This document shows positions 14,123-34,129 of a stretch of 64,000 nt of DNA, one piece after another. Under the pieces are notes generated by a model that saw only the letters and a program-made list of their open reading frames with translations, was not told the DNA's origin and ran no database searches. This DNA is from Naegleria gruberi (Eukaryota): the NCBI GenBank assembly GCA_000004985.1, contig GG738852.1; one strand, given 5' to 3'. The translations under genes were made by a program, and so were the position numbers. Position 1 is the stretch's first letter; the number at the start of each line of letters is the position of its first letter.

Positions 14123-15298
14123 TCAATCACGATTATGGTGTGTTTTATGGTGTTGATGATGGTCAAGTACTTTTTCATTCATGGATTGGAAATTCATTTG
14201 GATGGAATGAAGGAGAGCTAGTTGTGCTCTTGTTCTGATGAGATTGTGTTGTGGATAGGTAGTTTTGTAATAGGTATCACCGTTGATGTAATCTGTTAGA
14301 AATCTCAATGCCTGCTCAAAGGTAATATACTTGGCACTGAAAGCTAGATATTCAATTTCGATATCTGTGAGGAATTTGTAACCCTCAGAGAGATATCCAT
14401 TGGTAAAGCTTTCGAATATGTCCATTTTGAGATGAATGTTTTGAGTATTTGGATCATCTTCTGTAGATGTGTTACAATACGAACGAATGGCATCTCCAAA
14501 ATCATTCAATACTGTACTGCACATTACAGTGTCAAGGTCAATTAAGCAACATGCCTTATTGGTCTCAGTATCGAATAAAATATTACTTAATTTCGTATCG
14601 TTATGAGTAATTCTCAGTGGAATTTTGTTACTTTCTACCAATTCCCAAAAATCAATCATTTCCTTTCTATAATTTTCCACAATTCCAATTTCATCTTTCA
14701 CTTCCTCCAATCTGTTAACAATATTCCTTTCAATGGCTTGATCAAATTGTTCAAATCTGAATTTAATATTGTGAAATCCAGGTAACACATCCTTAATAAT
14801 GCATTCTCTATTTTCATAGGTGATATTTCCATGGCTCTCAGAAACCAAATCAGAAAGCATATTCTGGAATTTTCCAATCATTTTACCTCCTTCAAACGCC
14901 AACTCTTCCGAATCAGCCTTTTCATGAGTAGTGGTATTTTCTATAAACTTAAACATGGTCCAATATTGAGAGTTTTCCGAATCTTGATTCTCAATCAATT
15001 TGTAAAATAATTTTCCATCATTGATGGTAGGAACAATAGAAAGAGTCTCCCTATCCGGATTTCCTCCCAATTTTGCAATTTTCCCTCTCAAATGTTCAAT
15101 CACGAGGGAAATATTATTCATCATGAGTTGAATGTTTTTAAATATTTTGTGATTCTTTCGTTGGAGAATGTATTTATTGTTCGGAGAGGGAATGTTAAGT
15201 TCTACCAGATAGGTATCATTGATGAGTCCACTCGGAATTGGTTCGATATTTATATTTCCAAGATTTGGACCTAAAAATTGGCTTACGATTTCATTCAT
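14123..15298 (-). CDS. Aminoglycoside-phosphotransferase / choline-kinase-like (APH family) small-molecule kinase
   Basis: N-terminal GLINDTYLV nucleotide-binding-like motif. HNDTKLSNILFD...CLIDLDTV catalytic (Brenner) motif. Confidence 0.55.
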   Translation of the reverse strand: MNEIVSQFLGPNLGNINIEPIPSGLINDTYLVELNIPSPNNKYILQRKNHKIFKNIQLMMNNISLVIEHLRGKIAKLGGNPDRETLSIVPTINDGKLFYKLIENQDSENSQYWTMFKFIENTTTHEKADSEELAFEGGKMIGKFQNMLSDLVSESHGNITYENRECIIKDVLPGFHNIKFRFEQFDQAIERNIVNRLEEVKDEIGIVENYRKEMIDFWELVESNKIPLRITHNDTKLSNILFDTETNKACCLIDLDTVMCSTVLNDFGDAIRSYCNTSTEDDPNTQNIHLKMDIFESFTNGYLSEGYKFLTDIEIEYLAFSAKYITFEQALRFLTDYINGDTYYKTTYPQHNLIRTRAQLALLHSIQMNFQSMNEKVLDHHQHHKTHHNRD

Positions 15299-15340: not shown

Positions 15341-16516
15341 TTATTCTTGATCATCTTCTGCTTGATAATTTTCATCATTAGCATCTTCCTCTTCGTAATA
15401 TTCATCATCTTCATCAATATCTTCCTCATAATCCTCATCATCATCTTCCTCATCTTCTTCCTCATCATCGTCATCATCCATGTAAAGTGAAATTGGTCTT
15501 CTAATTCCAATGAGAACTGTTTTCATTTGAGTGACAAAGGCAACATTATTGGCCTCATCTCCCTCAATGCAGAATGCAAGTGTGAAATCATCCGTCTTGT
15601 CTGAGATAAATTGATTCGTTTCAAAGGTATTTCTTTGTAAAATCAAATTGATAGAGTGTTTCTTTTCCTGCTCTGAAACATATTCCTGTAATTTGCTGAC
15701 ATAGAGACAAATTTCAATTATCTTTTCTTTGAGTTCCTTTTTAATGTTTGCATGATTGGCTTCAATACTGTCCATGAAACTTAAATATGATCTCGATGTC
15801 AAGTACCAAATCATTTTTGGAGTTGAAGTTGTAACATCATGTTTCGAATAGGAAGCACTCATACCAAGATTTGGAATATTTTGCTTTGGAATAATTGAAA
15901 AACTCAATGTAAATGTTGAGCTTTGTCCCATTCCCAAATCTTTTGTAACTTGTTGACCTTTAAATGTTGAGAGAAATCTGTTTTGAAACCAATTCACATG
16001 TTTGACTTGTTCCAAAGGATAATACCTCGATGCCAATTCAAATGCCTTGCTCACTCTCATCATTTGAATGATTTCTCTCAATGTAAGAAATGGAAATATG
16101 TGATTATTAATAATTTTGAATGGAATTTGCTTTTTACAAATAGAATACTTTAACTTTTCAAGATCGGACCTGAAAGATTCATGATTTTGTGTTTTCTTTC
16201 TTTCCTTGATGAGTGATGATCTCATCTGACGAGCAAATTCTTCAATTTTTCCAATATTTAATTTTCTGTCTTCTGATGATGAGGTTTCGTCTGTTGGATT
16301 TTCGTTTTCTTGTTGAGGAGGATTGGCTGCCTCTTCATTATCGTCATCATTGGTTGATTCGTCATCTCGGGATTTAGTTTTCAACATGTCGTTGAATAGT
16401 TTCTCCTTCTCATGATATTCCTTTAGTCTTTGTTCAGTTTCTCCTAACAAATCACTATCGAATAAATTTTCAAAATTACCCAGAAGAGAAAGGTTCTTAA
16501 ATTGTTGTGGAAGCAT
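15341..16516 (-). CDS. Hypothetical protein with an F-box-like motif and a poly-acidic (D/E) C-terminal tail
   Basis: IPFKIINNHIFPFLTLREIIQMMRVSKAFELASRY; C-terminus DDDDDEEEDEEDDDEDYEEDIDEDDEYYEEE. Confidence 0.4.
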   Translation of the reverse strand: MLPQQFKNLSLLGNFENLFDSDLLGETEQRLKEYHEKEKLFNDMLKTKSRDDESTNDDDNEEAANPPQQENENPTDETSSSEDRKLNIGKIEEFARQMRSSLIKERKKTQNHESFRSDLEKLKYSICKKQIPFKIINNHIFPFLTLREIIQMMRVSKAFELASRYYPLEQVKHVNWFQNRFLSTFKGQQVTKDLGMGQSSTFTLSFSIIPKQNIPNLGMSASYSKHDVTTSTPKMIWYLTSRSYLSFMDSIEANHANIKKELKEKIIEICLYVSKLQEYVSEQEKKHSINLILQRNTFETNQFISDKTDDFTLAFCIEGDEANNVAFVTQMKTVLIGIRRPISLYMDDDDDEEEDEEDDDEDYEEDIDEDDEYYEEEDANDENYQAEDDQE

Positions 16517-26909: not shown

Positions 26910-27620
26910 AATATTCTGTTACATTGTAAATTAATAAAAACAAGATTGAGAACAAGTAATTATACTAATGAATATTAAAGCTCAAAGACTGTTTCACTTT
27001 TATTGATGAAGAATAAGTATGAAAAAATATTCAACTTATATTAAGTTTACAATAAAAACAAATCCATTCTTTACTTCGCTCAGAATTAGACATTATATCC
27101 TCAAATACTACTGCTCTCACTAATTCTTAATCTTAAACAATCTGATTCATCATTTGAGAGATATATCATTATACTCTCGTAAAATACAAGTTGAAAAAAT
27201 TGTAACACTTTAATTATGAGTTAATCAATAATTCAAGAAACCATTGTCTACATATGGAAGAACTAGTGTATTATTATAACAAAATTATTAAAATATTTTA
27301 AAAATTATCCTCAAAAAATAAGTCTCAACATCATGTCTTCATCATTATTAAGACAAAAAAAACCACTACTCCACCCTAAATCGAAAATATCTGTAAGTAT
27401 TGTATTTGCTTAATAAATTGGCTGGATGGTTGAATGAAAAGAGGATAAAATGTATACAATTTGTGTAGTAGAAAAATAAATTCACTGTTTTCAAAATCTG
27501 TTGTCCCATTGTTTTTACAAAAAAATTGATTATTTCAAAAGATTCATTCAAACTATCAATATGAAATACCAAATCAATATTACACATTTTTTTTAATTTT
27601 AAAAAAAAAACAAAATTATC

Positions 27621-29960
27621 ATGTTATCATTTACTTCTATTCAATTACAAAAGAATTTTAATTCCATCCAAGAAAATTTAATGACAAGGAATATACTATT
27701 AACTCCTGGAGAGACGATTCAAATTAATTCTCAAGTATTTTCAGTGAATTTATATTCATCATCGGATCAAAATAATTTAAATGATGAATTTCAAAAATCA
27801 ATTAGTGGACAAGTAGAAAACACAGAATTTATTCAATGTAAAGATCATTTGTTTACAATTGATAATTTATTACACGCTGATGAGTGTAGAGAAATTTTAC
27901 GCATGGAAGATTCCATTTACTTTACACCAATTTCGTCCGAATATCCTGAAGAGTATAGAAATAGCAAACGAATTGTTTATAATGATAAAGAACTTTCACA
28001 GAGATTATGGCGACGATTGAAAAAGTTTCTAGTTGATTGCAATTTCATGAAACCGTATGGTTTAGACACGGATGGATATTGGATTCCAATTGGTGTGAAT
28101 GAATGTTTGAGATTGAGTAAATATGAACCAGGGAATTATTTCAAACCTCACACAGATGGTCAATTTCTCAGAAATGATAATGAGAGAAGTATTTATACTT
28201 TACTAATCTATTTGAACGATGATTTTAAAGGAGGAGAAACCGAATTCTTACAAAGAGTAGATCCAACAGAGGAGTCTATCACCAAATTCAAACATATTTG
28301 TGCAATTAATCCAAGAATGGGATCTGCTGCAATATTTAATCATGAATTGTATCATCAGGGATGTATGGTCACTTCAGGGATCAAGTATATTTTGAGAACT
28401 GAGATAATGTTCAAGAGAATTGATTCAACAGAACAATTGGTGAATAAGAAGAATGATTTGCTTCACAATCAAATTATGAATCTCTTGAAAACAAGTGATG
28501 ATCTAGAAAAGAAAGGTGAAGTGATGGAATCTACCTATTACTATAGAAAAGCACAAGAGCTGTTAATTCAATATGGACATTCCACCTCATTATTGCTGGT
28601 ACCTACCTTTTCCAAGTCAAAAATCAGTTCCGAAGATTATTCTCTGAAAAGTACATTTTCTCAATTACCTGATGAGCTACTCATTCACATTTTCAAATAT
28701 TTGATGGATTGGGAAATTTGCCAACTCATTCTTCCACTCGATAGGTATTTCAATTATATTGGCAGAGACTTACAATTATGGGAATGGATGTATATGAACA
28801 AATGGGGAAATTCTATCACAAATTTATTGAAACAATTTAATGCAAGAAATACTGAGGAACTAAGAGAATTCAATTCACAAGACAATACGAGCTCACTTGA
28901 GGAAACACCAGCTGAGGAACAAGATTGGTTTCATATCTATATTATGAAACGTTATTTTGAAAAGGAATTTGAGCCAGTCTTTATTGATTATGGAAGTAAC
29001 CTATATGCAAACACCTATTTTTCATCAATTGATGGTCCTGTTCAAACTACTTTAACTAAAGTTCTTAGACCTCCAGCCTCTCAGTAAGTATTTCTATAGT
29101 TCATCTAGTTGATGACCATTATTTCAGCTTTTCACTTCCAAGATTTTCTTCTTATGGATTAATGGGAGATAATATTGATAGAGGACGTACTATAGATATG
29201 TTTGATGGTAATGGATTTAAAAAGCATATTCAAGTATTCACCTTTTTAATATACAAGAAAATGAAAAAGAGTTGTCAACGAAATCCACTTGTTGTCAGCT
29301 TGAATTCTAGAGCAATGGTTGACTTTGCAAAGGTCAAGGAAAGTATTTTGAATTTTTTGGTAAGTAGTATTGAAAATTCAACTATTAAATAATGTGAAAT
29401 AGTTCAGAATTCGTATTCCAGCCGTTTGCATTCTTCCAAGATGTTATCTATTGTCAATTTATTATAATCTTCCAACTTGCATAGTAGTGGATATTGGCAA
29501 ATATGATATTTATGTTCATACAGTTATTCAACATGATAAGGATCAAATAGGTACATTACATGCTGAATTTGATATTTATGGATCAAGTATCAACTTGTTC
29601 GAAACAGCTCAATCTACTGAAGAAAAAATCAAGTACATTGAAAATTGTGAAATTACTAAAGCCATTAATCAATTATTAGATCAGCATCCAAAAGAACTGA
29701 GAGCAGAATTGTTGGATAATATTATTTTCTCTGGAAATCTTGTGGAAATGGAATCATTATCAGACGTTCAACATGAAAGGAATCAAATTCTTAACATGTT
29801 CAATTCACCACATTCCACCTATCGAGTGAAACATCAAACGAGTGGTGAGGAGGCCATTCAGTCAGCCATTAATTTCTCAAAACTTCCAAACTTTAAAGAT
29901 TATTGCTCTTTCTGGTTTGATTGTGAAAAGATTGTTGAGTCAAAAGACACATTTATTTAA
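27621..29960 (+). CDS. Tri-domain protein: prolyl-4-hydroxylase-like 2OG/Fe(II) oxygenase, then an F-box, then a divergent actin-related protein. Exons 27621(or 27658)..29083, 29128..29359, 29403..29960; possible 5' exon 27334..27392.
   Basis: P4Hc motifs YEPGNYFKPHTDG...LLIYLNDDFKGGETEF...HELYHQG...KYILRTEIMF. F-box LPDELLIHIFKYLMDWEICQLILPLDRYFNYIGRDLQLWEW. Actin-fold start EPVFIDYGSNLYANTYF...VLRPPAS (compare actin VVDNGSG...IVGRPRHQG). The 488-aa ORF 'ends' at TAA 29085-29087, which lies inside the donor TCTCA|GTAAGT. The acceptor CCATTATTTCAG| at 29127 is in frame with ORF 29162..29392 (..H FSLPRFSSYGLMGDNIDRGRT...). A second 43-nt intron, 29360..29402, joins to ORF 29451..29960 (TCIVVDIGKYDIYVHTV..., LLDNIIFSGNLVEMESL..., C-terminus ...FWFDCEKIVESKDTFI). 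Confidence 0.6.
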
Positions 29961-30138
29961 TTTGGATATTTGAAAGTGGAACTGTGTTTATTTCAGTAAG
30001 GATGAACAGTTTCTTTAGTCTTTTTTCAACATTCGTCTCACTAATTTTAACAGCGCTTAATTTGGTAAACAGTAAAAAACCTGCCCTTAGAGATACAATT
30101 AGAGCAGAGCACTACTTATATGCATATACAAGAAAAAT

Positions 30139-31540
30139 ATGTCTCAACTCATGGTTCGAAGCTATTCATTCCTCCTGTTGATGATGCTCTTGAGTGCAGT
30201 ATTGATGATGTTCATCTCAGCAGCATCACCAATGAATGCTCAATCCACCAGAGCATCCAATGTTCTTTCATTATTGAATGAAAAGAAGGAACAATTAGAG
30301 AAGGTAAATAATGGCTTGTCGGAAACGAGCTTGTTGATGATTGCAAGCAAGAGGGAACAATCTTCCCCTCTCTACACTGCCTACAGTGAGGAAAAGAATA
30401 GAATTTATAATGTATTGGTAGCAACAAAGGCAGAATTGGAATATGAAGTTCAACTTCCTTCAAAAATTATACAATTCATCGATCAATGAATCAACAACCT
30501 CAACAACAAGTGAAGCAGATTTGAAAAAGCAGATGAAACTTGAGCAAGAAGCTGCTGCTGTCAAGAAAGTAGAACAAGAAAGAAAATTGAAAGAGGAACA
30601 GGAAAAGAAGATTAAGGAAGAACAAGAAAAGAAACTGAAATTAGAACAAGAAGCTACTGTTGTTGCTGCCAAGAAAGCAGAACAAGAAAAGAAGATTAAG
30701 GAAGAACAAGAGAGAAAACTCAAAGCTGCTGAAGAAGAAGAAAGAAAGTTGAAAGAAGAAGCTGCTAAAAAAGCTGAACAAGAGAAAAAACTGAAAGAAG
30801 AACAAGAAAAGAAATTGAAATTAGAACAAGAAGCTGCTGCTGTCAAGAAAGCAGAACAAGAAAGAATTCAAAAGGAAGAGCAAGCGAGAAAAGCACTCGA
30901 ACTTGAAAGAAAGGCAGAACAAGAAAGAAAGGCCAAGGAAGAAAAAAGAATCCAAGAAGAAAGAGATAGATTAATCCCAACTATTGGTGAATTGGTCGAT
31001 TCTGATTTATTGACACCTTCTCAATCTGAAAGATTTATGAAAGAAATCATGAAAGGAGTCAACCAACAATTACCTCACAGAATTTGGAAAGCCAAGAAGC
31101 ACGGCTCATCAATTGCTAATTTCCATGCTACATGTGATAACATGGGACCAACCATTGTGTTGGCCAAGACTAGAAATGGAGCTGTATTTGGAGCCTATTC
31201 AAAGATTTCATATTCCCTATCAGGTGATTATGTTTCTGATCCAGCTGCTTTTATGTTTAGTTTGATTTCGGCTGAGGGAGAACAAAGATTTGTCAAGTTG
31301 ACCCAAACACCACAAATTGTTGATGGAAAACAAACTTATCCAACTTCAAAGATTCATAACGCAAATCATTTGATTACTTTTGGAGGTGGTTATGACTTGC
31401 TCATATCAGACAATACTGTTAGCTTGAGTTCTTCCCTTGTTTGTCATACTTATTGTGCTCCACAAGTTACAAATCCAAAGACTTACCTTGCTGGTGAAAG
31501 AACATTTATGATTGACGATTTTGAAGTTTATAGAGTTTAA
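30139..31540 (+). CDS. Protein with a signal-peptide-like N-terminus, a K/E-rich tandem-repeat coiled-coil and a C-terminal TLDc-like domain. Two overlapping frames (30139..30489 and 30443..31540) point to a frameshift or unusual junction.
   Basis: MSQLMVRSYSFLLLMMLLSAVLMMFISAASP. Repeats of roughly 34 aa, (KEEQEKKLKLEQEAAAVKKAEQER)n. C-terminus HGSSIANFHATCDNMGPTIVLAKTRNGAVFGAYSKISYS...FGGGYDLLI...FMIDDFEVYRV matches the TLDc pattern. Confidence 0.5.
30520..30960 (+). repeat. Coding tandem repeat (about 100-nt unit, four or more copies) encoding the K/E-rich heptads of the TLDc-domain gene
   Basis: Reiterated gaacaagaaaagaagattaaggaagaacaagaaaagaaactgaaattagaacaagaagctgctgctgtcaagaaagcagaacaagaa...; the antisense ORF 30460..30846 is its mirror image. 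Confidence 0.7.
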
Positions 31541-32635: not shown

Positions 32636-34129
32636 TTAATTGAGCAAATTGAGAGCTTCAATCAAATTCTTTCTGGCAGTATCTACATCTTCAAATTGAA
32701 GTGAACTAATTGCAAATTTACATAATTTTTGTGCCTTCATCATATCATCGAGAGAGACTTCTCTCTTTGGTCCATTAGTATTGAGAACTGGTTGAGTAGT
32801 AGTGGTGGAATATGTTGGAGTTACAGGAGATGAGCTAATTGGAGTAGATGATGAGCTTGCTGGTTTTGGAATTGTTGAAACAGATTTTGGTTGTTGAAGT
32901 GGTTGTTGAGGTGGTTGAGTAAAAACAGGAGGTTGTACAAATTGTTGTTGTTGAGGTGGTTGAGGAGGAGGTTGATTAAATGTTGGTTGTTGTTGTTGAG
33001 GAGGAGGTTGTACAAATTGTTGTTGTTGTTGAGGTGGTTGTTGATATTGTGGTGGAACAAATGAAGGAGGTGAAACTTGTCTTGGAGGTTCATAAACAGT
33101 TGGTGAAGTGTTAAATGCAGATCTATTATTTGTTGGTGGAATAGGAGGTTGATTCCATGATGGGAAAGATTGTTCTTCTGTTGTTGTTGGAGAAATTTTC
33201 ATGGCATCATGATTAGTGTCAAAACTCCATGATGAAGGTTGTGGAATATTATTGTTGATATTAACTGAAGATGTTTGTTGTGAAGTTGACAAATTGAGTA
33301 ATCGTTGTTGTTCCATCAAATATTTAGTAACTTCATCTTCGTCATTGGAAGCATCATTGTTAATAGTATTTGCTGTTTGAGTTGGCATGTATTGCAATTG
33401 ATCATCTTCCTCTTCAGCTGTTTCTTCACTTGTAACTGGAGTAACAGGTTGACCTGTTCTAACTGATTTTTGAATTTCAGCAGCTCTCCACTTGGCATAC
33501 TTTTGTTTTTCCATCATCTATTAGTAATAATTAAATATGTTATTATATAATATGAAATTATTCAATGGAACCGAATGATAATAAAACACATACATCCGAA
33601 CTTAAATCACCAAATTGTTTGGTAACTTCAATCAAAATAGAGGCAGCATAATATAATTTAGCAATTTGACTATTTTCCAATGTTTTTAAACAATGATTGG
33701 TTGTTAATCAATTTAAATTATTATTATTATCATCATCATATTCATAAATATGTTTAATTAATATTATTAAATATATAAATAACAATAATAATAATAAACT
33801 TACGTATCGTGTCTTCCTGCACGATCGGCATCATCAGCCTTTTTAAAAACCTTCAAAGCAAAAACTTCAACAACACCCTTGGCTTCATCTTCTTGTGCTT
33901 CAATATTCAATTGTTCCTTATCTTGTTCCAATTGATCCATCAATCCAGTAAGTAAATTAGTAGCTTCATCATCGGCCTGATCTTGCGATTGAATAATTGA
34001 AATTCCCAATTGTGCAGCATAGGTTCTACAATAAAAACTCACAATAGGAGCTCTCTTTTCAAATTCATTGGCTCTTTGAATATAGGGAACGAGCGGCTTC
34101 AAGGAGGCTGGGTAATCATTGAGGGACAT
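32636..34129 (-). CDS. VTA1: Vta1/LIP5 (Vps4-associated ESCRT regulator); 3 exons: 33804..34129, 33594..33669, 32636..33517
   Basis: Exon 1 LKPLVPYIQRANEFEKRAPIVSFYCRTYAAQLGI...LMDQLEQDKEQL...EVFALKVFKKADDADRAGRH is collinear with the human LIP5 N-terminal MIT domain. The 76-nt middle exon, missed by the ORF track, reads TQIAKLYYAASILIEVTKQFGDLSSD. Exon 3 reads MMEKQKYAKWRAAEIQKS..., then a Q/P-rich linker, then the C-terminal VSL motif MMKAQKLCKFAISSLQFEDVDTARKNLIEALNLLN. Confidence 0.8.
32800..33120 (-). repeat. CAA/CCA-rich low-complexity coding tract (Q/P-rich linker of Vta1)
   Basis: QQPPQQQQQFVQPPPQQQQPTFNQPPPQPPQQQQF... encoded by a reiterated ttgttgttgaggtgg minus-strand pattern. Confidence 0.7.

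What the first reader, a model, noticed from the sequence alone, without database searches (positions are those of the whole stretch)
27334..29960. Rosetta-stone fusion: prolyl-4-hydroxylase domain + F-box + actin-related protein in one gene, hidden by a stop codon inside a 44-nt intron
Three lines of evidence, all read from the sequence:
- The 488-aa ORF (27621..29087) carries a P4Hc-type 2OG/Fe(II) oxygenase domain (HTD...H, KYILRT) followed by a clear F-box.
- Its last ~40 residues already begin an actin fold (EPVFIDYGSNLYANTYF... VLRPPAS, compare actin VVDNGSGMCKAGF... IVGRPRHQG).
- The terminal TAA sits exactly in a consensus donor (TCTCA|GTAAGTATTT). A polypyrimidine acceptor 44 nt downstream (CCATTATTTCAG|) continues in frame, with no stops, into ORF 29162..29392 and, via a second 43-nt intron, into ORF 29451..29960. 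These together encode the rest of a divergent Arp (TCIVVDIGKYDIYVHTV, LLDNIIFSGNLV, C-terminus ...FWFDCEKIVES).

Cytoplasmic P4H enzymes of this family (PhyA) hydroxylate Skp1, the adaptor that binds F-boxes, in amoebozoa and apicomplexans. A P4H physically fused to an F-box would be tethered to its own substrate. The additional Arp module is unexpected. I do not know of a described P4H-F-box-Arp architecture.
Basis: partly seen in the sequence, partly recalled or inferred. Interest (0 to 1): 0.85.

Follow-up and report, generated by a model that had tools for sequence, protein, structure and literature searches.

The report
Hydroxylase, F-box and actin-like fusion gene
One three-exon Naegleria gruberi gene, so far annotated only as a 244-residue fragment, encodes a 750-residue protein that joins a prolyl-hydroxylase-like enzyme, an F-box and a stripped-down actin-fold domain; the family is uncharacterised and detected only in Naegleria, Willaertia and some unassigned metagenome sequences.

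Summary
ORF 27621..29087 (488 aa) ends in a TAA that lies inside a CA|GTAAGT donor. Removing introns 29084..29127 (44 nt) and 29360..29402 (43 nt) gives an uninterrupted 750-aa product.

- **Introns.** Both sit at the same positions and phases in the annotated N. fowleri gene FDP41_009829 and in an N. gruberi-like paralogue. Their lengths differ, and exon similarity resumes after them.
- **Domains.** The 2OG/Fe(II) oxygenase domain passes Pfam and keeps its HxD...H...K site. The F-box is significant as a family profile. The C-terminus is an actin fold: longer paralogues score 50-63 bits on Pfam Actin, and a model of the N. lovaniensis relative matches only actins and Arps (E about 1e-14).
- **Degeneration.** In this subfamily the actin domain lacks most of subdomain 4 and has weakened nucleotide motifs.
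- **Source.** The window matches N. gruberi; GenBank's model here is a partial 244-aa P4H fragment (EFC47938.1).
- **Prior records.** Full-architecture models exist as unnamed proteins in N. fowleri, N. lovaniensis, Willaertia and one N. gruberi paralogue. I found no paper on them.
- **PhyA claim.** The P4H domain resembles collagen-type P4Hs, not PhyA/PHD, so "tethered to its own substrate Skp1" is unsupported.

Most likely it is an oxygenase-bearing F-box protein whose actin-like domain binds a partner.

The parts
27621..29083 (+). Exon 1: codons 1-487 plus the first two bases (CA) of His488. It encodes the oxygenase, the helical hairpin, the F-box, a helical linker and the first strands of the actin fold.
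   Evidence: ORF list. The splice model translates without stops. GenBank's partial model EFC47938.1 covers residues 21-264 at 100% identity.
27840..28415 (+). Prolyl-4-hydroxylase-like 2OG/Fe(II) dioxygenase domain, residues ~74-265. The predicted iron-binding residues are H177 (28149-51), D179 (28155-57) and H245 (28353-55). The predicted 2OG-binding residue is K255 (28383-85).
   Evidence: Pfam 2OG-FeII_Oxy_3 scores 45 bits against a cutoff of 27. These four residues are invariant in the family alignments. The nearest solved structures are B. anthracis P4H and PBCV-1 P4H. Coordinates were checked.
28416..28655 (+). Conserved two-helix hairpin (SDDLEKKGEV..YYYRKAQELL) followed by a variable spacer, between the oxygenase and the F-box.
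   Evidence: It is conserved in all family members. It is modelled as two long helices in the N. lovaniensis relative. It is also present in the Cotonvirus japonicus homologue P0061.
28656..28784 (+). F-box, residues 346-388: FSQLPDELLIHIFKYLMDWEICQLILPLDRYFNYIGRDLQLWE.
   Evidence: On this sequence alone Pfam F-box-like scores 20 bits (cutoff 24.3) and F-box 17.6 bits (cutoff 20.5). All 7 aligned members match F-box-like, best E 6e-9. The family profile hits the F-boxes of FBXL5 (9.5e-6), FBXO4, Cdc4, Skp2 and KDM2B. The region is three short helices in the model.
28974..29083 (+). Start of the actin fold: the phosphate-1 strand-loop-strand PVFIDYGSNLYANTYF and the following strands, up to the position equivalent to the actin D-loop.
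   Evidence: It aligns with actin ALVVDNGSGMCKAGF...IVGRPRH. The equivalent residues of the relative form beta-strands with pLDDT of about 90.
29084..29127 (+). Intron 1: 44 nt, phase 2, splitting a His codon (CA|C), GTAAGT...TTTCAG. It contains the apparent stop TAA at 29085-87.
   Evidence: The position and phase are the same in N. fowleri FDP41_009829 (93 nt, CA|GTAAGT..CAG|C) and in paralogue L002 (70 nt). Ungapped similarity to L002 breaks off just before this intron and is detected again only well inside exon 2. Four ORF or gene models of paralogues stop at or just after this point.
29128..29359 (+). Exon 2: last base of His488 plus codons 489-565. It covers the remnant of actin subdomain 2 and the helix/strand of subdomain 1 (..QRNPLVVSL..).
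   Evidence: It is in frame and stop-free. It aligns with actin [27 protein letters not shown]. It is identical in the 98.6%-identical contig L001.
29360..29402 (+). Intron 2: 43 nt, phase 0, GTAAGT...AATAG.
   Evidence: The alternative acceptor at 29407 breaks the frame. The position and phase are the same in N. fowleri (61 nt, ATG|GTAGGT..TAG|ATG) and in L002 (47 nt).
29403..29960 (+). Exon 3: codons 566-750 plus the stop TAA at 29958-60. It holds the rest of the actin fold: IPAVCILPRCYLLSIYYNLPTCIVVDIGKYDIYVHTV (subdomain 3, phosphate 2), a short remnant of subdomain 4, LLDNIIFSGNL (adenosine loop) and the C-terminal helices.
   Evidence: Pfam Actin is weak on this sequence (14-17 bits). 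The C-terminal profile hits only actin and Arp4 at the top of the PDB list, collinearly. A near-identical ORF, P0012, comes from a metagenome.

Best explanation
Window 27621..29960 (+) is a single three-exon gene of Naegleria gruberi. It encodes a 750-residue F-box protein with three functional modules.

- N-terminal module: a collagen-type prolyl-4-hydroxylase-like 2OG/Fe(II) dioxygenase with an intact metal- and 2OG-binding site.
- Middle module: after a conserved helical hairpin, an F-box, which in such proteins docks onto Skp1 of SCF ubiquitin ligases.
- C-terminal module: a fast-evolving, reduced actin-fold domain. It occupies the place where F-box proteins carry their target-binding domain.
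- The actin-fold domain keeps subdomains 1 and 3. It has lost most of subdomain 4, and its nucleotide-binding loops are degenerate.

Shown here: the gene structure, the three domain identities, conservation of the catalytic residues, and membership of a multi-paralogue family found in Naegleria, Willaertia and some unassigned metagenome sequences.

Inferred: the protein binds Skp1 through the F-box. The actin-like domain serves as a binding module, not a polymerising ATPase. The oxygenase hydroxylates a protein held in that complex in an O2- and 2OG-dependent way. The substrate could be the recruited target, Skp1 or the protein itself; it is unknown.
For: **Gene structure**
- The splice model is stop-free.
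- Both intron positions and phases are conserved in N. fowleri FDP41_009829 and in paralogue L002, with different intron lengths (44/93/70 nt and 43/61/47 nt).
- The 743- and 744-aa N. lovaniensis and N. fowleri proteins align across both junctions over 95-96% of the query.

**Oxygenase**
- Pfam scores 45 bits against a cutoff of 27.
- H177, D179, H245 and K255 are invariant.
- PDB profile hits to P4Hs reach 8e-8.
- dN/dS against the paralogue is 0.13.

**F-box**
- All 7 aligned members match, best E 6e-9.
- The profile hits the F-boxes of FBXL5, FBXO4, Cdc4 and Skp2.

**Actin fold**
- Longer paralogues score 50-63 bits on Pfam Actin against a cutoff of 27 and match actin end to end at 1e-7.
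- The model of the N. lovaniensis C-terminus has pLDDT 80.7 and pTM 0.82. Its top 50 PDB matches are all actins or Arps, at E about 1e-14 and TM 0.69-0.77.
- The domain aligns collinearly with human actin.

**C-terminus as the variable receptor position**
- The related proteins P0007 and Ploeotia vitrea P0008 keep the P4H and F-box but have a C-terminus that is not detectably actin-like.
Against: - No transcript data were available, so splicing rests on comparative evidence only.
- The spliced window protein could not be submitted for structure prediction. The fold evidence comes from a 28%-identical relative and from alignments.
- On the window sequence alone, the F-box and Actin Pfam scores are below their cutoffs.
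- Skp1 binding, catalysis and the substrate are all untested.
- The domain arrangement in the full-length model is uncertain (pTM 0.47).
- dS between the paralogues is saturated, so the dN/dS values for the actin part (0.17-0.52) are rough.
Confidence: 0.7

Rival explanations
1. One reading: the oxygenase is a PhyA-like Skp1 prolyl hydroxylase, and the F-box tethers it to its own substrate, Skp1.
For: The oxygenase and F-box are in one polypeptide. PhyA-type enzymes do hydroxylate Skp1 in Dictyostelium and Toxoplasma (PMC7864055, PMC9485057). Nothing tested here excludes Skp1 as a substrate.
Against: The family profile finds collagen-type P4Hs. It finds no PhyA (6T8M), PHD2, PPHD, TaPHD or OGFOD1 chain up to E = 10 (the PhyA structure's existence is confirmed). 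The 2OG-binding residue is Lys at +10 from the distal His, the collagen-type arrangement. I could not check whether N. gruberi Skp1 has the target proline, or whether a true PhyA/Gnt1 pathway exists there.
Confidence: 0.12
2. Two genes, or mainly a truncated product: the P4H/F-box protein ends at the TAA of 29087, and the downstream ORFs are a separate Arp-like gene or untranslated sequence.
For: GenBank and metagenome ORF callers stop at or before this point: EFC47938.1, EFC38457.1, EFC49496.1, EFC49721.1 and P0005. Retention of intron 1 would give exactly the 488-aa protein.
Against: The actin fold begins upstream of the intron, in exon 1, so a separate downstream gene would lack its first strands. 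ORF 29162 starts inside the domain. The intron positions are conserved in an annotated N. fowleri gene. N. gruberi paralogue EFC39264.1 is annotated spliced through the same His codon. Exons 2 and 3 remain open in the paralogue L002.
Confidence: 0.05
3. The C-terminal domain is a working actin-related protein: it binds ATP and contacts actin filaments or Arp-containing complexes. It would take the hydroxylase to the cytoskeleton or to chromatin remodellers, and the F-box would be secondary.
For: Long paralogues keep phosphate-1, phosphate-2 (DxGxxG) and GG adenosine motifs and a full-length fold. Arp4 is among the top sequence matches.
Against: In the window's subfamily most of actin residues ~180-270 (subdomain 4) are missing. 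The subdomain 2 region is modelled as disordered. The adenosine loop GG has become GN, and phosphate 2 reads DIGKYD. No specific Arp class is matched. The domain evolves faster than the rest of the protein.
Confidence: 0.13

Closest known systems
Dictyostelium JcdI/Fbxo13 and mammalian KDM2A/KDM2B (FBXL11/FBXL10): F-box proteins that carry a 2OG/Fe(II) dioxygenase domain
   Same: An O2- and 2OG-dependent dioxygenase and an F-box are in one polypeptide. JcdI binds Skp1 and shows physiological O2 dependence (PMC9485057). The family profile here also touches the KDM2B F-box.
   Different: Those enzymes are JmjC-type, whereas this one is P4H-type (Pfam 2OG-FeII_Oxy_3). In JcdI the F-box lies near the N-terminus; here the oxygenase comes first. 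None of them has an actin-fold domain.
Collagen-type prolyl 4-hydroxylases: Bacillus anthracis P4H (3ITQ/5HV0), PBCV-1 vCPH (5C5T), Chlamydomonas P4H (2JIG/3GZE), P4H-TM (6TP5)
   Same: They are the best sequence matches to the oxygenase domain. They share the HxD...H triad and the Lys at +10 from the distal His.
   Different: Those are single-domain or secretory/ER enzymes with no F-box or actin domain. Similarity is distant (E 8e-8 at best, with a profile). The substrate here is unknown.
PhyA / PHD (EGLN) cytoplasmic prolyl hydroxylases that modify Skp1 or HIF-alpha
   Same: Same enzyme superfamily, and a functional connection to SCF through Skp1 (PMC7864055).
   Different: There is no detectable specific similarity. 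PHD-type enzymes use an Arg to bind 2OG, by my own knowledge of that family. PhyA has no F-box.
Actin and actin-related proteins (Arp1-Arp10, orphan Arps)
   Same: The fold and motif order match. Long paralogues pass Pfam Actin. The model matches actin structures.
   Different: Identity to actin is 13-16%. The domain belongs to no conserved Arp class. It is fused behind an F-box. In this subfamily it lacks most of subdomain 4 and has degenerate nucleotide loops.
Database relatives: N. fowleri FDP41_009829 (744 aa), N. lovaniensis C9374_004061 (743 aa), N. gruberi EFC39264.1 (659 aa); long forms N. lovaniensis C9374_013538 and C9374_003586, N. fowleri FDP41_008733, Willaertia magna ABK040_003979
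   Same: Same three-domain order and same intron positions where checked. They are homologous over the whole length.
   Different: They are 33-37% identical to the window protein. All are annotated only as hypothetical, F-box or P4H-domain proteins, and none has been studied.

Membership tests
2OG/Fe(II) dioxygenase, P4H type (Pfam PF13640 2OG-FeII_Oxy_3) | Score above the curated family threshold | tested here: met
   45 bits against a cutoff of 27, residues 164-257. All 7 aligned members match.
2OG/Fe(II) dioxygenase, P4H type (Pfam PF13640 2OG-FeII_Oxy_3) | HxD...H iron triad and a basic residue that binds the 2OG C5 carboxylate | tested here: met
   H177, D179, H245 and K255 are invariant in alignments A1 and A8. 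They align with H-x-D, H and K of B. anthracis P4H.
2OG/Fe(II) dioxygenase, P4H type (Pfam PF13640 2OG-FeII_Oxy_3) | Prolyl hydroxylase activity | not testable with these tools
   This needs a recombinant enzyme assay.
PhyA / PHD-type Skp1 or HIF prolyl hydroxylases | Closest similarity to PhyA/PHD catalytic domains | tested here: not met
   The family profile against all PDB sequences up to E = 10 lists collagen-type P4Hs. It lists no PhyA (6T8M), PHD2, PPHD, TaPHD or OGFOD1.
PhyA / PHD-type Skp1 or HIF prolyl hydroxylases | Hydroxylation of Skp1 at the conserved proline | not testable with these tools
F-box proteins (SCF substrate receptors) | F-box motif of about 45 residues forming three helices | tested here: met
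   The window sequence alone is below cutoff: F-box-like 20 bits against 24.3, and F-box 17.6 bits against 20.5. Paralogues pass, at up to 34.9 bits. The family profile hits FBXL5 at 9.5e-6 and FBXO4, Cdc4 and Skp2 F-boxes. The region is three helices in the model.
F-box proteins (SCF substrate receptors) | Binding to Skp1 | not testable with these tools
   This needs co-immunoprecipitation or a complex model with Naegleria Skp1.
Actin / Arp superfamily (Pfam PF00022) | Score above the curated family threshold | tested here: inconclusive
   The window protein scores 14-17 bits against a cutoff of 27. Homologous long paralogues score 50-63 bits. The best E among the short-form members is 1e-5.
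Actin / Arp superfamily (Pfam PF00022) | Actin fold: two RNase-H-like halves with subdomains 1 and 3 | tested here: met
   The model of the 28%-identical N. lovaniensis C-terminus has pLDDT 80.7. Foldseek's top 50 are all actins or Arps, at E about 1e-14. The window sequence aligns collinearly with it and with human actin. The window protein itself could not be modelled.
Actin / Arp superfamily (Pfam PF00022) | All four subdomains and intact phosphate-1, phosphate-2 and adenosine nucleotide-binding loops | tested here: not met
   About 70 residues of subdomain 4 are missing. The adenosine loop reads SGN instead of SGG, and phosphate 2 reads DIGKYD instead of DSGDG. The subdomain 2 region has pLDDT below 50 in the relative. 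The long paralogues keep these features.
Actin / Arp superfamily (Pfam PF00022) | Assignment to a conserved Arp class | tested here: not met
   A long paralogue is about equally distant from actin, Arp4, Arp1 and ACTL6A.
JmjC-type dioxygenase F-box proteins (JcdI/Fbxo13, KDM2A/B) | JmjC catalytic domain | tested here: not met
   There is no JmjC hit in Pfam. The domain is 2OG-FeII_Oxy_3.

The most novel reading that the evidence does not exclude
The family is an oxygen-dependent hydroxylase and ubiquitin-ligase receptor that uses an actin mimic as bait. The retained subdomain 1/3 surface, where most actin-binding proteins dock, would capture proline-rich actin regulators such as formin, WASP/SCAR or profilin ligands. 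The collagen-type P4H, a class that acts on proline-rich sequences, would hydroxylate them. The F-box would hand them to SCF. This would couple O2 or 2OG levels to the actin cytoskeleton in an amoeba that switches between crawling and swimming.
Probability: 0.08. Interest if true: 0.8.

Novelty: new variant of a known kind. Interest (0 to 1): 0.5.

Why it matters
- **Annotation.** It corrects a gene model in a reference protist genome. The same phase-2 GTAAGT intron has truncated the models of at least three further N. gruberi paralogues.
- **A new dioxygenase / F-box combination.** After the JmjC-type KDM2 and JcdI proteins, this is a second, independent way of joining a 2OG dioxygenase to an F-box.
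- **An unusual receptor domain.** I know of no other F-box protein with an actin-fold domain in the substrate-receptor position.
- **Testable leads.** For work on oxygen sensing through SCF ligases in protists, and on the diversification of the actin fold, it offers a small, clearly delimited family with testable partners.
- **No function known.** There is no evidence yet for a specific function.

Tried and rejected
- **Exact look-ups.** Look-ups of window ORFs and of EFC47938.1 in the contig index found nothing.
- **Source organism.** It came to light only through a 100%-identical partial N. gruberi model in the third homology search. A search with the window's Vta1 ORF had wrongly suggested a species absent from the collections.
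- I used exon translations and the N. lovaniensis and N. fowleri relatives instead.
- **Fragment alignment.** Aligning the exons as separate fragments misplaced exon 2, so I dropped it.
- **Upstream mini-ORF.** The mini-ORF at 27333 as a first coding exon is rejected.
- **Donor as evidence.** GTAAGT as evidence in itself is rejected because it occurs at chance frequency.
- **Near-identical contig.** Substitution patterns against L001 were too few (12 differences) to separate exons from introns.
- **hhalign against one actin.** It gave only a weak, though collinear, match.
- **Other relatives.** P0007 and P0008 were tested for an actin-like C-terminus and none was detected.
- **AlphaFold-database fold search.** It was unavailable.
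- **Equal-length ORFs.** Two adjacent 391-aa ORFs looked like tandem duplicates but are unrelated.
- **Literature.** Six literature searches for the architecture returned nothing relevant.
Full report
**What is in the sequence.** The window is AT-rich (about 33% GC) and eukaryotic.

- ORF 27621..29087 (488 aa) and the two downstream ORFs 29162..29392 and 29451..29960 exist as described.
- The terminal TAA (29085-87) lies in CA|GTAAGT.
- Joining 27621-29083, 29128-29359 and 29403-29960 gives 2253 nt, which is 750 codons plus stop with no internal stop.
- The excised pieces are 44 and 43 nt, GTAAGT...CAG and GTAAGT...TAG. The nearby alternative acceptor at 29407 breaks the frame.
- GTAAGT occurs at chance frequency in the window, so the donor is not evidence on its own.
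- With a phase-2 intron, GTAAGT always reads xxG TAA. The 'hidden stop' is an ordinary consequence of the splice consensus.
It cannot be joined to the main frame upstream of 27621. The only in-frame acceptor (27653|27654) would remove residues that align with a paralogue's coding sequence. I take 27621 as the start.

**Are the introns real?** No transcript data were available, so the test is comparative.

- The 743- and 744-aa N. lovaniensis and N. fowleri proteins cover 95-96% of the spliced product. They align straight across both junctions (..GGH|YSF.. and ..MMM|EMRIPAAC.. against ..PASH|FSL.. and ..NFL|FRIRIPAVC..).
- Mapping the N. fowleri protein onto its genomic locus gives exactly two introns. 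One is CA|GTAAGT...CAG|C (93 nt, phase 2, in the same His codon). The other is ATG|GTAGGT...TAG|ATG (61 nt, phase 0, same position).
- A paralogue on metagenome contig L002, at least 90% identical to N. gruberi EFC38457.1, has the same two introns at 70 and 47 nt. Their sequences are unrelated to the window's introns, and the reading frame continues open to the contig end.
- Nucleotide similarity between the window and L002 is detected across exon 1 and again from within exon 2 to within exon 3, but not across intron 1.
- Four ORF or gene models of paralogues end at or just after this intron...ATRQ...SGVQ...TGGQ, and ...KFSQ followed by nine read-through residues.
- I regard the three-exon model as established short of RNA evidence.

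**Oxygenase domain.**

- Pfam 2OG-FeII_Oxy_3 passes at 45 bits against a cutoff of 27.
- H177, D179, H245 and K255 are invariant across the family. They align with the iron triad and the 2OG-binding lysine of Bacillus anthracis P4H.
- A family profile against every PDB sequence finds B. anthracis P4H (8e-8), PBCV-1 P4H (5e-4), P4H-TM, Chlamydomonas P4H and lysyl hydroxylase 3.
- The same search finds no PhyA, PHD2, PPHD, TaPHD or OGFOD1 up to E = 10, although the Dictyostelium PhyA structure 6T8M is deposited (PMC7864055).
- The domain is therefore P4H-like of the collagen/viral/bacterial kind, not of the PhyA kind.
- Close homologues of the domain plus its helical hairpin occur in Cotonvirus japonicus and in many metagenomic proteins of about 185 aa.

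**F-box.** On the window sequence alone the F-box models fall just short of their cutoffs: 20 bits against 24.3, and 17.6 against 20.5. All seven aligned members match, best E 6e-9, and several paralogues pass. The family profile hits the F-box segments of FBXL5 (9.5e-6), FBXO4, Cdc4, Skp2, FBXW7 and KDM2A/B.

**Actin-like domain.** Pfam Actin is weak on the window protein (14-17 bits). Four lines of evidence agree that it is an actin fold.

1. A profile of the C-termini has actin and Arp4 as its only top PDB hits. The two collinear segments correspond to actin residues ~93-170 and ~364-444.
2. An exhaustive profile search of 1.8 billion representatives found only 15 relatives. Five are long proteins (832-971 aa) from Willaertia magna, N. 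lovaniensis, N. fowleri and a metagenome. Their C-terminal halves pass Pfam Actin, four of them at 50-63 bits and the metagenome protein at 29.7 bits. All five also carry the oxygenase domain, three with a detectable F-box. One of them matches actin end to end at 1e-7.
3. A multiple alignment with human beta-actin is collinear from the phosphate-1 loop (PVFIDYGSNLYANTYF against ALVVDNGSGMCKAGF) to the C-terminal helices.
4. An AlphaFold model of the N. lovaniensis C-terminus, 28% identical to the window's, has pLDDT 80.7 and pTM 0.82. Its 50 best PDB matches are all actins or Arps, at E about 1e-14 and TM 0.69-0.77.

The window's subfamily is reduced, however.

- Most of subdomain 4 is missing.
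- The subdomain 2 region is predicted to be disordered.
- The adenosine loop reads SGN and phosphate 2 reads DIGKYD.
- The domain evolves faster than the rest of the protein (dN/dS 0.17-0.52 against 0.13 for the oxygenase, with saturated dS).
- It matches no particular Arp class.

**Where the window comes from and what was already known.** GenBank EFC47938.1 / XP_002680682.1, 'predicted protein, partial [Naegleria gruberi]' (244 aa), is 100% identical to residues 21-264. The window therefore matches N. gruberi, and the public model for this locus holds only the oxygenase domain.

N. gruberi has at least five further paralogues.

| Accession | Model length | State of the model |
|---|---|---|
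| EFC38457.1 | 506 aa | truncated at intron 1 |
| EFC49496.1 | 576 aa | truncated; reads into intron 1 |
| EFC49721.1 | 451 aa | truncated at intron 1 |
| EFC35281.1 | 219 aa | partial |
| EFC39264.1 | 659 aa | spliced, complete architecture |

Full-architecture models also exist for N. fowleri, N. lovaniensis and Willaertia, all as hypothetical proteins. Contig L001 from ENA sample ERZ929261 is 98.6% identical to window 28526-30885. Six literature searches found no description of the architecture.

**How it most likely works.**

- The order is oxygenase, hairpin, F-box, helical linker, then C-terminal domain. This puts the actin-like module where F-box proteins carry their target-binding domain.
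- Relatives outside the Naegleria/Willaertia group keep the oxygenase and the F-box. These are the euglenid Ploeotia vitrea P0008 and the unassigned P0007 and P0059.
- For P0007 and P0008, the C-terminus is not detectably actin-like. That is how a variable receptor domain would behave.
- My reading is an F-box protein that docks on Skp1, binds a partner through the actin-like domain, and hydroxylates a protein in that complex in an O2- and 2OG-dependent way.
- The intact catalytic site and the domain identities are shown. Skp1 binding, the substrate and any ubiquitylation are inferred.

**Comparison and verdict.**

- The nearest functional precedents are dioxygenase-bearing F-box proteins: Dictyostelium JcdI/Fbxo13 (PMC9485057) and mammalian KDM2A/B. 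Those are JmjC enzymes and have no actin domain.
- The oxygenase passes the test for P4H-type 2OG oxygenases and fails the test for PhyA/PHD.
- The C-terminus has the actin fold but fails the full actin/Arp feature set.
- I file this as a new variant of a known kind, an oxygenase-carrying F-box protein. It belongs to an unstudied family detected in Naegleria, Willaertia and unassigned metagenome sequences, and the family is already partly present in databases.
- Interest is moderate. The three-domain combination is unusual and gives clear experiments, but there is no functional evidence, and its most eye-catching element, the hidden stop, is routine.

Noticed in passing
Related records: N. gruberi EFC38457.1 (P0030), EFC49496.1 (P0002), EFC49721.1 (P0057); contig L002 1537-1606: At least three other N. 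gruberi paralogue models stop at, or read into, the same conserved phase-2 GTAAGT intron. They therefore lack the actin-like domain. This looks like a systematic annotation error across the family.
   Followed up: partly
window 27333-27392: A 20-codon ORF (MSSSLLRQKKPLLHPKSKIS) is followed directly by GTAAGT, about 230 nt upstream of the gene's ATG. It could mark a 5'-UTR intron or be chance. The only in-frame join is at 27654, and the paralogue does not support it.
   Followed up: partly
Protein P0061 (Cotonvirus japonicus QLL95_gp0387) and many ~185-aa metagenome proteins: The oxygenase with its helical hairpin has a close homologue in a giant virus of amoebae (E 3e-55). The oxygenase core alone recurs in many short proteins, some of which also match Pfam Pox_C4_C10. 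This hints that the module moves between amoebae, giant viruses and bacteria.
   Followed up: no
Loci L001 and L002 (ENA sample ERZ929261, run ERR1078381): A sample filed as a metagenome holds contigs 98.6% identical to this N. gruberi window. It also holds a paralogue at least 90% identical to EFC38457.1, so it contains an N. gruberi-like amoeba.
   Followed up: partly
window 32636-33517 (-): This 293-aa ORF has a Vta1 C-terminal domain. Its best database relatives are only 37-38% identical over its full length (an unnamed metagenome protein and N. lovaniensis), plus a 47% match to Willaertia over a fifth of its length. No N. gruberi protein appears, although the window matches N. gruberi. 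The gene may be unannotated or modelled differently there.
   Followed up: no
window 30139-31540 (+): An ORF with a signal-peptide-like start (30139-30489) overlaps a 365-aa ORF (30443-31540) that carries lysine/glutamate-rich repeats and a TLDc domain. They are probably one gene with an intron or a frame change near 30300-30450.
   Followed up: no
Protein P0017 (N. fowleri FDP41_008733, 832 aa) against CAG4713175.1 (884 aa): The 832-aa model jumps from the hairpin (LEKQGK) straight into the second half of the F-box. It probably lacks an exon that the 884-aa model of the same gene retains.
   Followed up: no
window 14123-15298 (-) and 15341-16516 (-): These two adjacent ORFs are both exactly 391 aa and looked like tandem duplicates. 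They share no similarity (BLASTP E 0.9).
   Followed up: yes
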